Source: Opitutales bacterium (GTDB lineage Bacteria > Verrucomicrobiota > Verrucomicrobiia > Opitutales > UBA953). Taken from it: a DNA stretch of 64,000 nucleotides. A program made the position numbers. Of the stretch, positions 18,001 through 21,000 are shown piece after piece. Location: assembly GCA_040398005.1 (NCBI GenBank), contig JBBAUX010000010.1, positions 1 to 64,000 on the forward strand. Reading direction: 5' to 3'. Every line of letters begins with the position of its first letter. Positions within the stretch are counted from its first letter, which is position 1.

Positions 18001-21000
18001 AATCCAGCACTTGATGCCGAGTTTGCCGTAAACGGTACGAGCTTCCGCAAATCCGTAGTCGATATTTTCGCGAAGAGTATGGAGAGGAACGCGACCGACA
18101 CGGGCGGATTCCACGCGGGCGATTTCGGCACCACCCAGACGACCACCGAGACGTAAACGAATGCCATCCGCACCATTTTGCATGGTTGATTGAATAGCTT
18201 TCTTCATCGCACGACGGAAAGAAATACGACGCTCTAATTGTAAGGCTACGTTTTCCGCAACCAATTGCGCCACGAGATCAGGGCGTTTGACTTCGTTCAC
18301 TTCGAGAATCACGTCCTCAAGCTTAGCCTTACCGGCGACTTTTTGGATTTCTTCACGGAGCTTCTTAAGTTCATCACCCTTACGGCCGATGACGACACCA
18401 GGACGAGCCGTCCAAATGCGCACACGGACTTTAGGACCAGCACGTTCGATAAAGATGCGAGGGACAGCAGCTTGGCGGAGCTTCTCTTTGAGGAACTCGC
18501 GGATGCGGTAGTCTTCAAGAATGAAGGAAGGGAAATCGCGCTTAGTGGCAAACCAGCGAGATTCCCAGTTACGACGAACGGCTAAACGGAAGCCGATTGG
18601 ATTTACTTTCTGTCCCATTGTAGTCTGTTAAGTTGGTTTATTTGGTGGATGAACCGAGAGCGATACGGATATGGCTCATCGATTTATGAATAGGGTGGGC
18701 GGAACCACGAGCGGCAGGCATAGAGCGCTTGAGCACGGGACCTTGATTAACGGTGGCGGAAACCACAATGAGATCGTTGGATGATAATTGGTGATTGTTC
18801 TCCGCGTTGGCGATGGCACTGGCCAAAGTCTTCGCGAGTAAGCGCGCGGACTTACGAGGGATGAAGCGGAGAAGCTGGATGGCTTCTTCAGCGGGCAAAC
18901 CTTGGATTTGACGTGCAACTTCGCGCACCTTTTGAGGTGACATACGAGCGAAACGAGTAGAGGCGTGAACTTCCATGACGTGATAAAGTGTTTAGAGAAT
19001 TAAATGCGTGGGTTAGGACGAAGGGTGATCGTGTCGCCCGACGTAATTTGCGTTGAAGAATCGAGTGAAAGGATGAGTGCGATAGCGCGTTGTTCGGTCG
19101 CTTCGGCCACAATCACCGAACCAAAAGCACGGCCTTCGTGGGTTACGGTGCAAACGGCACCAGGACGAAGACCACAATTATAACCACCGGACACGACGAC
19201 TAAGTCGGTGTTGTTTCCAGCAATCACTTGGGCTACCTTGGCTCGACCTTCAGCTTCAACTGAACCCAACATACGCGCTTCCGCTACAATGGTAAGAACC
19301 ATAGCAACGAACACCGCGAAGATTGAGTGACTGAAACGCATAAAGATTATTGGGCTTCCTTACGTGAAGGTTGAGTGTGTTGACGGAAGGTGCGCGTTGG
19401 AGCGAACTCACCGAGTTTATGTCCGACCATATTTTCTGTGATGTACACAGCAATGAAGGCCTTACCGTTATGGACCTCGAGATTGAGTCCAACGAATTCA
19501 GGAGTAACCGTCGAACGACGTGACCACGTTTTGATGGGCTTACGGTTGCTGATTTTTTGAGCAGCAGCGATCTTGTCCACTAAATGTGGGTCAACGAAGT
19601 ATCCTTTTTTACGAGAGCGTGACATGGTAAATTATGCTTGTTTCACTTTGCGACCGTTACGGCGCACGATGATTTGATTGTTCGAGGCCTTAGCCTTGGT
19701 ACGTGTTGGGAAACCCTTAGCGAGCTGACCCCAAGGTGATTTAAGATGTTGGCGACCGCCTCCACCTTTAGATTTACCACCGCCACCACCGTTCGGGTGA
19801 TCCACAGGATTCATCGCCATACCACGAACACGTGGACGACGACCCATCCAGCGACTACGGCCGGCTTTACCGAGGCTAGCGTTTTGGTGTTCAAGATTTC
19901 CAACGATACCCACTGTCGCGCGACAATCGGCATTGATGTAACGTTGTTCACCAGAAGGCATACGTAAAATAGCGCGATTTAACTCGATACCCATCAACTG
20001 GGCAAAACCACCTGCGGAGCGGGCGATTTGAGCACCACGACCGGGTTCGATTTCGACACAGTGAATGAAAGTGGCAGGCGCAATTAAACGTAACGGCAAC
20101 GAGAGACCAGGAGTGAGCCGCTCTTGTGGCTTATTCGTGCTCACAATCACATCACCTTCTTTTAGACCATCGGGTGCTAAAATGTAGGTGTGAGTCTTGT
20201 CAGCGTACTCGAGTAAAGCGAGGTGAGCAGTGCGATTTGGATCGTATTCAATACGTAAGACAGTCGCTGGTTGATCTAAAACATCGCGACGGAAATCGAT
20301 AGTACGATAAAGTTTTTTATGACCTCCACCCCGACGGCGTGAAGTGATACGGCCATAGCAATTACGACCACGAGCGCGGTGATTGCTTTCGGTAAGCTGA
20401 CGCTCCGGACGACCCTTGTGGAGGTTTTCGGTCTTTACGCGAACCAAGAAACGTTGGCCGGGAGTAATAGGACGTGAAGAAATGATAGACATGGGAGGTG
20501 GCTAATTAGGCGAGTGAGATAACGTCACCTTTTTGAAGGGTAACAATGGCACGGCGAGAAACCGTCTCGGTGTAGTTGGAACCTTCACCTAAACGGCTGC
20601 GGCGAGCTTTTCCTTTACGGATAAGAATGTTCACTTTGATGACAGTCACCTTGAAGTTTGCTTCGATCGCGGTCTTCACTTGGACGCGGTCAGCACCAGG
20701 AAGAATTTCGAAAACATACTTGTTAGCTTCGGCGAGGCCGGAAGCTTTTTCAGTGAGAATAGGGCGACTGATGATGTCGGAAGCGGGCTTCATAGTTTTT
20801 AGTTTTTGGTGCGTTCGAGCACTTTGGTTAAACCTTCGAGCGTAATCAGAACACGAGGTGTTTTGACTAAATCGAAAGCATTGAGATTAGAAGAGTTCGA
20901 GAAAATCGCACGGTTTAGATTGCGGCTCGCCTTAAGAACTGGCTCGGACCAACTGCAGTCGACCACGAGAAGACGTTTTCCTTCTGGGCTAACATTCTTG

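What a model noticed while it worked through the whole genome (the two positions that open the first line are those of the whole stretch)
19000..19341. Exported small beta-barrel protein gene wedged between rpsS and rplV
A 113-aa ORF (g01221; true start 13 codons upstream of the call) with a hydrophobic signal-peptide-like N-terminus and a six-stranded beta-barrel sits between rpsS (S19) and rplV (L22) inside the S10 ribosomal-protein operon, and a homologue sits in exactly that slot in every Verrucomicrobiota locus examined, in other classes as a longer form with a coiled coil (an MreC-like build). Boldest reading: it is a phylum-wide envelope (periplasmic) factor whose dose is hard-wired to ribosome synthesis, a coupler between translation capacity and envelope growth. 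New would be a non-ribosomal, exported protein as a fixed member of the most conserved bacterial operon, and a new family.
Evidence so far: Own ORF C10:19003-19341(-); relatives' proteins are 113 aa. tblastn of L2, S19, X, L22, S3: X lies between S19 and L22 in 9 of 10 first loci (the tenth has the match of call 18 in the same gap) and all 30 loci centred on profile matches have S19 and L22 on either side, incl. 7 from distant families where the 440-800-nt gap holds ORFs of 132-249 aa with hydrophobic N-terminus, coiled coil and the same C-terminal domain. Found in 47 of 121 Opitutales genomes by single sequence, 72 of 201 of the phylum by profile. No Pfam hit at E<=10. 521 clusters at 50% identity among 1.8e9 representatives. 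AF2 pLDDT 81, barrel 91-97; Foldseek best E 1.5e-3, generic barrels incl. MreC, FlgT. The profile's nex [...]
(Added by a program. Inside this text positions count along the whole contig: contig position 1 is position 1 of the stretch shown here. "Call 12" and the like, gene names such as g00115 and contig names such as C1 are that model's own, and its searches are not shown. The text may have been shortened before it was handed on; [...] marks where a part breaks off. The agent that wrote the report below was given it as the finding of a first reader that could run no searches.)

Follow-up and report, generated by a model that had tools for sequence, protein, structure and literature searches.

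The report
Exported barrel protein gene before rplV
A small gene for an exported beta-barrel protein of unknown function sits inside the ribosomal-protein S10 operon, just before the L22 gene, in many but not all Verrucomicrobiota, and stays attached to the L22 gene even where the operon has broken.

Summary
The ORF is real: 113 aa, window 19000-19341(-), 5 nt after rpsS and 23 nt before rplV. It has a Sec-type signal peptide and a confident six-stranded beta-barrel, and no Pfam, NCBIfam or PDB sequence match. The closest folds are the FlgT C-domain, the ATPase N-terminal barrels and MreC.

Relatives occupy the same slot in Opitutales as short forms. Akkermansia, Verrucomicrobiaceae and Kiritimatiellia carry forms of 164-290 aa with a helical stretch before the barrel.

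- The gene is not phylum-wide. In 31 of 40 profile-negative genomes the rpsS-rplV gap is 6-218 nt and holds no such gene. These include Opitutaceae, Methylacidiphilum and Kiritimatiella.
- In Lentisphaeria the S10 operon is split exactly at rpsS|X. X stays directly upstream of rplV, and rpsS lies 37-662 kb away.
- Paralogues with the same build exist outside ribosomal loci, one of them in this genome.

New support: RNA-library contigs bridge rplV-X-rpsS-rplB. X's codon usage is like that of ribosomal proteins (92nd percentile). The Verrucomicrobium spinosum gene in this slot was scored essential by TraDIS, though polarity is not excluded.

Best reading: an abundant exported envelope protein expressed with the ribosomal operon. 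Its function is untested.

The parts
19000..19341 (-). CDS of X, 113 aa plus stop codon (19000-19002)
   Evidence: 15 homologue clusters at 53-91% identity; profile finds 791 clusters at E<=1e-3
19276..19341 (-). codons 1-22: predicted Sec signal peptide (MR, hydrophobic core, AEA then R)
   Evidence: read from the sequence; same feature in 44 of 46 family members; low-pLDDT helix 7-23 in the model. Cleavage is inferred and was not tested.
19012..19251 (-). codons 31-110: six-stranded beta-barrel domain
   Evidence: AF2 strands 33-40, 47-50, 63-68, 71-81, 86-93, 104-107, block pLDDT 93-97; VIA Z 10.0 to the FlgT C-domain, 8.1 to MreC
19342..19346 (-). 5-nt spacer between the rpsS stop and the X start
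18977..18999 (-). 23-nt spacer between the X stop and the rplV start
   Evidence: 3-33 nt in 28 related loci
19347..19625 (-). rpsS (S19), upstream neighbour
   Evidence: Pfam PF00203, 4.6e-35
18638..18976 (-). rplV (L22), downstream neighbour; the conserved linkage partner
   Evidence: Pfam PF00237, 3.1e-36; X lies directly upstream of L22 in all 43 out-of-order genomes cross-checked
15678..22521 (-). surrounding run of co-directional ORFs read as the S10 operon and the start of the spc operon (S10 to L5)
   Evidence: ORF list; gene names for L2, S3 and the others are read from the translations and from tblastn between loci, not from Pfam scans

Best explanation
X is one cistron of the S10 ribosomal-protein operon. 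It is translated from the polycistronic mRNA and exported by the Sec pathway through its N-terminal signal peptide, with predicted cleavage after AEA at residue 22. Outside the cytoplasmic membrane it folds into a six-stranded beta-barrel of about 90 residues. It is the shortened Opitutales form of a Verrucomicrobiota family. The family's longer version is a signal peptide or anchor, then a helical stalk, then the same barrel.

I read it as an abundant structural or scaffolding protein of the cell envelope. The barrel would be a binding module; in the long forms the stalk would hold it away from the membrane. Its place directly before rplV would give it high, growth-coupled expression.

Shown: the gene, its position, its conservation, the fold, and the signal-type N-terminus. 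Inferred: export, abundance and the envelope role. The gene can be lost: many lineages of the phylum lack it.
For: Position and operon:
- The gaps are 5 nt and 23 nt.
- Promoter-like and terminator-like sites are at shuffle level, and no terminator-like site lies on the minus strand between rpsS and rplV.
- Lake metatranscriptome contigs of a relative 95-99% identical run across rplV-X-rpsS-rplB: X2 record 18 covers 18802-20258 and X4 record 29 covers 18849-20600.

Export:
- 44 of 46 members have a positive or neutral n-region and a hydrophobic stretch near the N-terminus. Lentisphaeria forms carry 0 to +10 (seven of eight +3 or more) before it and acidic residues after it. By the positive-inside rule this puts the C-terminal part outside.

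Fold:
- pLDDT is 83.6, with the barrel at 93-97.
- The best VIA match is the periplasmic FlgT C-domain, Z 10.0.
- The long-form model has helices 4-77, 82-120 and 126-143, then a barrel at 160-232.

Selected linkage:
- X lies directly upstream of rplV in 29 of 29 order loci and in 43 of 43 out-of-order genomes cross-checked.
- This holds in Lentisphaeria-type genomes, where rpsS is 37-662 kb away.

High expression:
- CAI against a ribosomal-protein reference is 0.698. That is the 92nd percentile of 763 long ORFs and the 90th against size-matched pieces. SecY scores 0.597 and map 0.541.

Constraint:
- 5 of 8 listed strain differences in X are synonymous.

Importance in one species:
- V. spinosum VSP_RS22560 lies between rplV and rpsS. 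It has an insertion index of 0.00127 in a library with one insertion per 12 bp and is scored essential (PMC12283558, supplement files 7 and 9).
- A genome of that family has a 786-nt ORF in the slot, exactly the length that index implies.
Against: - There is no functional data for any member.
- The slot is empty in 31 of 40 profile-negative genomes examined, including whole families. Any coupling role is therefore not needed by many relatives.
- The TraDIS 'essential' call can be fully explained by polar effects on the essential genes downstream. The word 'polar' does not occur in the paper's own text, only in a reference title.
- RNA-library contigs can contain DNA and do not prove a single transcript.
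- CAI on 110 codons is noisy.
- Signal-peptide cleavage was judged by rule, not by a trained predictor.
- X evolves fast: 50% identity within the genus against 92% for L22. This fits an envelope protein but also a weakly constrained one.
- The barrel fold is generic. Cytoplasmic ATPase and translation-factor barrels score almost as well as FlgT, at Z 9.6 down to 7.
Confidence: 0.45

Rival explanations
1. Frozen accident. X is an exported protein with some ordinary periplasmic job. Its gene landed between rpsS and rplV in an ancestor of the phylum. It persists there only because rearrangements inside this operon are selected against. The position carries no function of its own.
For: X has been lost many times without visible change to the operon: 31 empty slots among 40 genomes. 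Paralogues with the same build work from ordinary loci: the own genome's C2, Akkermansia, L070 and L077. The paralogue has an even higher CAI (0.741) without being in the operon.
Against: When the operon did break, in Lentisphaeria-type genomes, it broke on the rpsS side and X stayed with rplV in all 15 such loci seen. In Verrucomicrobiaceae the gene is kept in 28 of 28 good-quality genomes. Both points could still be one inherited event each.
Confidence: 0.27
2. Role in cis. Translation and membrane targeting of the X signal peptide act on the mRNA itself. This could draw the distal S10 mRNA to the membrane or tune translation of rplV and the genes after it. That would explain why the linkage is specifically to rplV.
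For: X-rplV adjacency with 3-33 nt spacers in 28 loci. The linkage is kept after operon fission, where X becomes the first gene of the distal half. Known secretion monitors such as SecM, which regulate a downstream gene, are exported proteins (recalled, not checked here).
Against: The conserved part of X is a folded barrel, not a short C-terminal arrest motif. The last residues differ between clades (alignment A2). The hydrophobic N-terminus is conserved only as a feature. No structured RNA family was found in the window apart from one tRNA. Genomes without X manage rplV expression normally.
Confidence: 0.1
3. Cytoplasm-facing factor. The N-terminal helix is a membrane anchor and the barrel stays in the cytoplasm, where it binds ribosomes or a translation factor. 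The fold also resembles EF-Tu domain 2, IF2 C2 and Gar1 barrels.
For: VIA matches to translation-protein barrels at Z 6.2-7.2. The gene sits among ribosomal genes.
Against: The charge distribution puts the N-terminus inside and the rest outside in 44 of 46 members. Hydrophobic cores as short as about 13 residues followed by A-x-A fit cleaved signal peptides. Z values of 6-7 are at the background level stated for this search.
Confidence: 0.07
4. X is a diverged MreC-type or FlgT-type protein and works in the cell-elongation machinery or in a flagellar ring.
For: Barrel similarity to MreC (Z 7.2-8.1) and to the FlgT C-domain (Z 10.0). A weak hhalign match to the first MreC barrel, E 2.7e-4. Two of 16 long forms touch FlgT_C at 14-15 bits.
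Against: A true MreC (103.8 bits) is encoded elsewhere in this genome, and in 25 of 25 order genomes. X has one barrel, not two. The hhalign probability is only 41%. The FlgT_C model hit 25 of 151 genomes but never at the slot.
Confidence: 0.05

Closest known systems
secY (with adk, map, infA) inside the spc ribosomal-protein operon
   Same: A non-ribosomal gene tied to the envelope or secretion is embedded in, and co-transcribed with, a conserved ribosomal-protein operon. This is established knowledge. A 508-aa ORF at 11335-12861 occupies the expected SecY position in this window (I did not scan it against Pfam).
   Different: secY is universal, essential and of known function. X is limited to one phylum, is often lost and has unknown function. 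X sits in the S10 operon, where I know of no such resident. X's codon usage is closer to ribosomal proteins than that of the SecY-position ORF (0.698 against 0.597).
FlgT C-terminal domain (Pfam PF16538; PDB 3w1e, 8z5n)
   Same: It is the best structural match to the barrel: Z 10.0, rmsd 2.6 over 76 residues. FlgT is periplasmic.
   Different: X gives no sequence match to the Pfam model at E<=10. Long forms reach 14-15 bits against a cut-off of 27. FlgT has further domains and acts in the Vibrio flagellar H-ring. No flagellar context is present here.
MreC (Pfam PF04085)
   Same: The long forms share the general build: an N-terminal membrane segment, a helical stretch, then an exported beta-barrel of similar fold.
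   Different: MreC has two barrels and sits in the mreBCD cluster. This genome has its own MreC on another contig. The profile-profile probability is only 41%. The window's protein has no helical stalk at all.
Braun's lipoprotein Lpp, as an example of a very abundant coiled-coil envelope spacer
   Same: This is an analogy only. A signal peptide, a long helical stalk in the long forms and signs of very high expression would suit a structural spacer. One source labels a long form 'Lpp', most likely because of its coiled-coil composition.
   Different: X has no lipobox (read from the sequences). There is no sequence relation. X ends in a barrel, and the Opitutales form lacks the stalk.
PVC superphylum signature protein (C. 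trachomatis CT421.2)
   Same: It is a small lineage-specific protein of unknown role that has been used as a marker of a related group.
   Different: By the passages read in PMC3444138 it is about 53 to over 80 aa long and is found in all PVC phyla. X is exported, has a barrel and is patchy within one phylum. I recalled a possible ribosomal-cluster location for that protein but found no support for it. Its sequence was not compared here.

Membership tests
MreC (PF04085) | Match to the Pfam MreC model above 28 bits | tested here: not met
   No Pfam family at E<=10 for X. The genome's real MreC scores 103.8 bits on contig C7.
MreC (PF04085) | Membrane segment, coiled coil and two tandem beta-barrels | tested here: not met
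   The window's protein has one barrel and no coil. Long forms have helices and one barrel.
MreC (PF04085) | Remote homology of the barrel by profile-profile comparison | tested here: inconclusive
   hhalign of A2 against A3: probability 41%, E 2.7e-4, 50 columns.
FlgT_C (PF16538) | Match to the Pfam model above 27 bits | tested here: not met
   No hit for X. 14.2 and 15.2 bits in 2 of 16 long forms. Of the hits in 25 of 151 genomes, none lies at the rplV slot.
FlgT_C (PF16538) | Same barrel fold | tested here: met
   VIA Z 10.0, rmsd 2.6, 76 residues aligned to 8z5n residues 287-377. ATPase N-terminal barrels follow at Z 9.0-9.6, so the fold is shared widely.
Sec-exported proteins with a cleavable signal peptide | Positive n-region, hydrophobic core, small residues at -3 and -1 | tested here: met
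   MR, then FSHSIFAVFVAMVLTIV, then AEA before R. The feature is present in 44 of 46 members and in none of the 9 ribosomal proteins used as controls at their N-terminus. This rests on a heuristic rule only.
Sec-exported proteins with a cleavable signal peptide | Actual export and cleavage | not testable with these tools
   Needs reporter fusions, fractionation or N-terminal mass spectrometry.
S10 operon cistron | Same strand, short gaps, no internal terminator, joint RNA coverage | tested here: met
   Gaps of 5 and 23 nt. No terminator-like site on the minus strand between rpsS and rplV. RNA-library contigs bridge both junctions. A single transcript is not proven.
Ribosomal proteins | Match to a ribosomal-protein family and universal presence | tested here: not met
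   No Pfam hit and only one chance-level NCBIfam hit (E 0.13, 11 bits vs cut-off 416). X has a signal peptide. The slot is empty in 31 of 40 genomes examined.

The most novel reading that the evidence does not exclude
X is a truly essential envelope component in the lineages that keep it, as the V. spinosum TraDIS call would suggest if it is not due to polarity. Its fixed place in front of rplV, kept even when the S10 operon split, would be selected because it locks the amount of an exported structural protein to ribosome output. That would be a hard-wired link between translation capacity and envelope growth, and the first non-ribosomal resident of the S10 operon with such a role.
Probability: 0.12. 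Interest if true: 0.85.

Novelty: new variant of a known kind. Interest (0 to 1): 0.58.

Why it matters
The S10 operon is among the most stable gene arrangements in bacteria. A non-ribosomal, exported protein that has lived inside it since before the split of Verrucomicrobiae, Kiritimatiellia and Lentisphaeria is unusual. It is also unusual that this gene stays glued to rplV when the operon breaks.

The finding points to an unstudied and probably abundant envelope protein family. The family occurs in a phylum that includes Akkermansia and the model species V. spinosum. In V. spinosum the slot gene is already scored essential, and targeted mutagenesis now exists, so the question can be tested directly.

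The finding also gives a clean gene-order marker. Three states can be told apart: slot filled, slot empty, and operon split at this point. These may help in working out relationships within the phylum.

Tried and rejected
- **Homodimer prediction.** Two copies of the barrel with alignment A2 scored 0.01 against a mark of 0.42, so there was no verdict. It is not used as evidence either way.
- **PVC signature protein.** I recalled a paper by Lagkouvardos and others (2014, not seen here) and suspected X might be that protein. Passages of PMC3444138 describe it as CT421.2, about 53 to over 80 aa and present across all PVC phyla. It is a different protein.
- **Literature.** Searches with 'rpsS, rplV, Verrucomicrobia' and 'S10 operon, gene order, insertion, Verrucomicrobia' found no description of this gene. 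A term search of PMC7203096 found no S19 or L22 mention in the first 300,000 characters held. The one supplement held for the Akkermansia outer-membrane proteome paper (PMC4960237) has no L22 or S19 rows, so I could not find the Amuc locus tag. The Akkermansia transposon study was not found in the library.
- **The search for related loci.** The call on genome contigs with A1 failed because the alignment has no conserved stretch to search with. I did not repeat it. Taxon names came from exact protein look-ups instead.
- **Newer Pfam tags.** PF26666.1, PF24161.2 and PF27954.1 are precomputed on a few long forms. PF26666 was asked for and is not in the local Pfam copy; none of the three appeared in the local scans of the long forms, so none could be identified.
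- **Neighbours of the paralogues.** RadC, YjeF, Usp, ribosomal protein S1 and unknown ORFs gave no functional lead.
- **Earlier notes.** A look-up for this place returned nothing.
- **Protein atlas.** It showed only unnamed Verrucomicrobiota clusters, with FlgT_C as a weak lead at 0.79-0.83.
- **E-value threshold.** The broad profile A2 cannot separate slot orthologues from paralogues by E-value. Genomes with an empty slot still give hits of 1e-8 to 1e-14 elsewhere. The figure of 222 of 301 is therefore not a count of slot occupancy.
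Full report
**The observation.** The window carries a run of co-directional minus-strand genes that read as the S10 operon. Between rpsS (19347-19625; Pfam Ribosomal_S19, 4.6e-35) and rplV (18638-18976; Ribosomal_L22, 3.1e-36) lies an ORF of 113 codons at 19000-19341. I call it X. It starts 5 nt after the rpsS stop and ends 23 nt before the rplV start. The long start is the right one: 14 of 15 homologue clusters found by single-sequence search are 113 aa and share the N-terminus. One member of its own 90% cluster is 100 aa, the length expected from the shorter call. X has no Pfam or PDB-sequence match at E<=10; NCBIfam gave only one chance-level hit (E 0.13, 11 bits against a cut-off of 416). 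The window belongs to a 1.44-Mb, 94%-complete genome. The nearest named proteins come from an 'Opitutae bacterium' MAG.

**The protein.** The sequence begins MR, continues with a hydrophobic stretch, and then reads AEA followed by R. That is the pattern of a Sec signal peptide cleaved by signal peptidase I.

I applied a simple rule to 46 family members: net charge before the longest uncharged hydrophobic stretch. A positive or neutral n-region followed by an uncharged stretch of 14-36 residues appeared in 44 of them. One of the two exceptions is a mis-pick by the script. None of nine ribosomal proteins from the window shows such a stretch at its N-terminus. The Lentisphaeria forms carry 0 to +10 (seven of eight +3 or more) before the stretch and acidic residues after it. 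By the positive-inside rule this places the rest of the protein outside the cytoplasmic membrane. This is an inference. No trained predictor and no experiment stands behind it.

AlphaFold2 on a 33-sequence alignment (A1) gave a mean pLDDT of 83.6. The N-terminal helix (7-23) has low confidence. A six-stranded barrel spans residues 33-107, with block pLDDT of 93-97. Foldseek against the PDB found nothing below E 1e-3, only generic barrels. The exhaustive VIA search put the C-terminal domain of periplasmic FlgT first (8z5n: Z 10.0, rmsd 2.6, 76 residues). Next came the N-terminal barrels of F1/V1 and type III secretion ATPases and of HerA (Z 8.2-9.6), then MreC (Z 7.2-8.1). The fold is thus a common small barrel. 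It does not name a function.

**The family.** A profile of A1 found 791 clusters at E<=1e-3, 250 at E<=1e-10 and 14 at E<=1e-30, among 1.84 billion 50%-identity representatives. All hits that carry a source name are 'hypothetical protein' or coiled-coil mislabels from Verrucomicrobiota taxa. The protein atlas likewise shows only unnamed Verrucomicrobiota clusters.

- **Short forms.** In Opitutales the protein is short, 112-179 aa. Named examples are Coraliomargarita and Ruficoccus.
- **Long forms.** In Akkermansia (236 aa), Phragmitibacter flavus (261 aa), other Verrucomicrobiaceae and Kiritimatiellia (250 aa) it is longer. An AF2 model of the Akkermansia form shows helices 4-77, 82-120 and 126-143, then the same barrel at 160-232 (pLDDT 83.5). 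The helical part attracts only sub-threshold hits to coiled-coil families in Pfam.
- **One family.** An alignment of 41 barrel domains (A2) ties short, long and Lentisphaeria forms together. It has invariant glycines and a shared hydrophobic pattern.
- **Paralogues.** Proteins with the same build, a membrane segment, a long coil and a barrel, lie outside ribosomal loci. One of 304 aa is on contig C2 of this genome. Akkermansia has one of 271 aa. Others are in L070 and L077. Their neighbours gave no lead.

**Position in other genomes.** By single sequence, 64 of 151 Opitutales genomes have a match. All 29 other-genome loci returned have S19 before and L22 after the match. In 28 of them, spacers are 3-33 nt on the rplV side.

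By profile A1, 118 of 301 genomes of the phylum have a match. I fetched 20 distant matches. Three are paralogues with no ribosomal genes nearby. Ten are S19-X-L22. Seven have X directly before L22 but no S19 or L2 within about 3 kb.

I then took 40 of the 183 profile-negative genomes. They were chosen because their L22 coordinates were listed, and they span about two dozen families. I read 2.5 kb upstream of L22 in each.
- In 31 the rpsS-rplV gap is 6-218 nt and holds no such ORF.
- In 8 a diverged long X of 241-402 aa sits directly before rplV, without S19 upstream.
- In 1 a 129-aa X fills a 436-nt gap.

Exact look-ups of the S19 proteins name some empty-slot lineages: Nibricoccus and Horticoccus luteus (Opitutaceae), an Oceanipulchritudo-like Opitutales group, Methylacidiphilum caldifontis, Terrimicrobiaceae, Kiritimatiellaceae and Kiritimatiella glycovorans. 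The gene is therefore old in the phylum but has been lost often.

The broad profile A2 hits 222 of 301 genomes. This figure includes paralogues in genomes whose slot is empty, so it is not an occupancy count. For 43 genomes outside the order, both the best A2 match and L22 had listed coordinates. In all 43 the match lies just upstream of L22 on the same strand. I checked this by eye and did not check the rest. In Verrucomicrobiaceae 37 of 41 genomes have the long form, and 28 of 28 of good quality do.

**The split operon.** The X-without-S19 loci belong to Lentisphaeria and Victivallaceae where names exist. In five such genomes S19 is present elsewhere. In the three with both genes on one contig, it lies 37 kb, 120 kb and 662 kb from L22. 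The genes upstream of X there are unrelated and vary: topoisomerase I, an HhH-GPD glycosylase, an M20 peptidase, an epimerase. So the S10 operon broke exactly between rpsS and X. X stayed with rplV as the first gene of the distal half. This may be a single inherited event, so it counts once. Even so, it shows that the conserved partner is rplV.

**Expression and constraint.**
- Pattern scans show no excess of promoter-like or terminator-like sites. No terminator-like site lies on the minus strand between rpsS and rplV.
- Rfam finds only one tRNA in the window.
- Sixteen RNA-library runs of lake or fresh water hold part of the stretch.
- In the four runs I laid, contigs 95-99% identical to the window cross both junctions. 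X2 record 18 covers 18802-20258, X4 record 29 covers 18849-20600, and X1 record 2 covers 18119-19263. Contigs cannot prove a single transcript, and RNA libraries can contain DNA, so this is supportive only.
- Of eight strain differences listed inside X, five are synonymous and three fall in two codons.
- With codon weights taken from 15 neighbouring ribosomal and EF-G genes (X not included), X has a CAI of 0.698. That is the 92nd percentile of 763 long ORFs of the genome and the 90th against size-matched pieces. Ribosomal proteins score 0.699-0.795. The ORFs at the expected SecY and map positions score 0.597 and 0.541. The paralogue on C2 scores 0.741.
- X evolves much faster than its neighbours: 50% identity to the same-genus genome, against 92% for L22.

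**Published data.** In the V. spinosum TraDIS study (PMC12283558) I read the abstract and outline, passages, and rows of supplement files 7 and 9. There rplV is VSP_RS22555 and rpsS is VSP_RS22565. The locus between them, VSP_RS22560, has an insertion index of 0.00127 and is scored essential. The library averages one insertion per 12 bp. The index equals 1/785. A complete 8.22-Mb genome of the same family (G439) has a 786-nt, 261-codon X ORF between S19 and L22. I therefore take VSP_RS22560 to be the X orthologue; this is an inference. The locus is not discussed in the text and is absent from the paper's tables of E. coli and Planctopirus orthologues. The word 'polar' does not occur in the paper's own text, only in a reference title, so the essential call may only reflect the essential genes downstream. 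The largest supplement (mmc5) could not be read.

**Comparison with known families.**
- **MreC.** X fails the Pfam model and has one barrel instead of two. It coexists with a true MreC in this genome and in 25 of 25 order genomes. It reaches only 41% hhalign probability against an MreC alignment.
- **FlgT_C.** This is the best fold match. Yet the Pfam model gives nothing for X and only 14-15 bits for 2 of 16 long forms, against a cut-off of 27. In 151 genomes it never hits the slot. One of its weak hits is the paralogue in G121.
- **secY in the spc operon.** This is the nearest precedent for the arrangement: a non-ribosomal, envelope-related gene inside a ribosomal-protein operon.
- **PVC signature protein.** This is a different, smaller protein.
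- **Literature.** My searches found no description of a gene between rpsS and rplV in this phylum.

**Reading.** The best-supported account is an exported, probably abundant envelope protein expressed as part of the S10 operon. It is a shortened member of a phylum-specific family made of a stalk and a barrel.

My rough odds are as follows.
- The barrel is outside the cytoplasm: about 0.85.
- X has a structural or scaffolding envelope role with selected co-expression: about 0.45.
- The position is a frozen accident: 0.27.
- X acts in cis on rplV expression: 0.10.
- X is a cytoplasm-facing translation-related factor: 0.07.
- X has an MreC-like or FlgT-like function: 0.05.

The 'coupler' idea cannot be tested with sequence data. 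Frequent loss argues against a general need. The retained rplV linkage, the codon usage and the TraDIS result keep it open.

Noticed in passing
L103-L109, L119, L068, L071-L073, L076, L078, L079 (Lentisphaeria-type genomes): The S10 operon is split between rpsS and X-rplV. rpsS lies 37, 120 and 662 kb from rplV in G357, G301 and G155. The genes upstream of X vary: topoisomerase I, HhH-GPD glycosylase, M20 peptidase, epimerase.
   Followed up: partly
L002:1474-2388 (-), own genome contig C2: A 304-aa paralogue has an N-terminal membrane segment, a long coiled coil and the same C-terminal barrel. It lies between a pgi-like and an rsmI-like ORF, names read from the translations only. Its CAI of 0.741 is as high as that of ribosomal proteins. 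Similar paralogues occur in Akkermansia (271 aa), L070 and L077.
   Followed up: partly
L083-L089, L097, L101 (Opitutaceae-type genomes with an empty slot): The rpsS-rplV spacers are 75-122 nt in these genomes, against 6-43 nt in other empty-slot genomes of the same order and class. They may be scars of a deleted X gene. I did not compare them with X sequences.
   Followed up: no
P0242 (one 3.6-kb metagenome contig; cluster of L103's protein): A 404-aa protein reads from a Lentisphaeria X straight into L22, after a frame change near the end of X. It is on a single contig and is most likely an assembly or sequencing error. The 90% clustering nevertheless lumps X and L22 proteins into one cluster because of it.
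   Followed up: partly
P0224, P0311, P0250, P0312, P0343, P0345, P0352 (long forms): The precomputed Pfam tags PF26666.1, PF24161.2 and PF27954.1 appear on a few long forms. PF26666 is not in the local Pfam copy, and none of the three showed in the local scans, so I could not tell what they describe.
   Followed up: partly
window 17900-20600: Lake-water and freshwater metatranscriptome runs hold a relative 95-99% identical to this stretch, at contig word depths in the hundreds. The organism, or a close strain, therefore seems active in lakes.
   Followed up: partly
alignment A1, residue C64 of the window's protein: A cysteine in the third barrel strand is kept in at least 90% of the 33 Opitutales short forms. 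It is not kept in the long forms of other classes. Some short forms have a second cysteine eight residues earlier.
   Followed up: no
window 54378-54458 (+): A tRNA gene is the only Rfam match in the window at gathering score.
   Followed up: no
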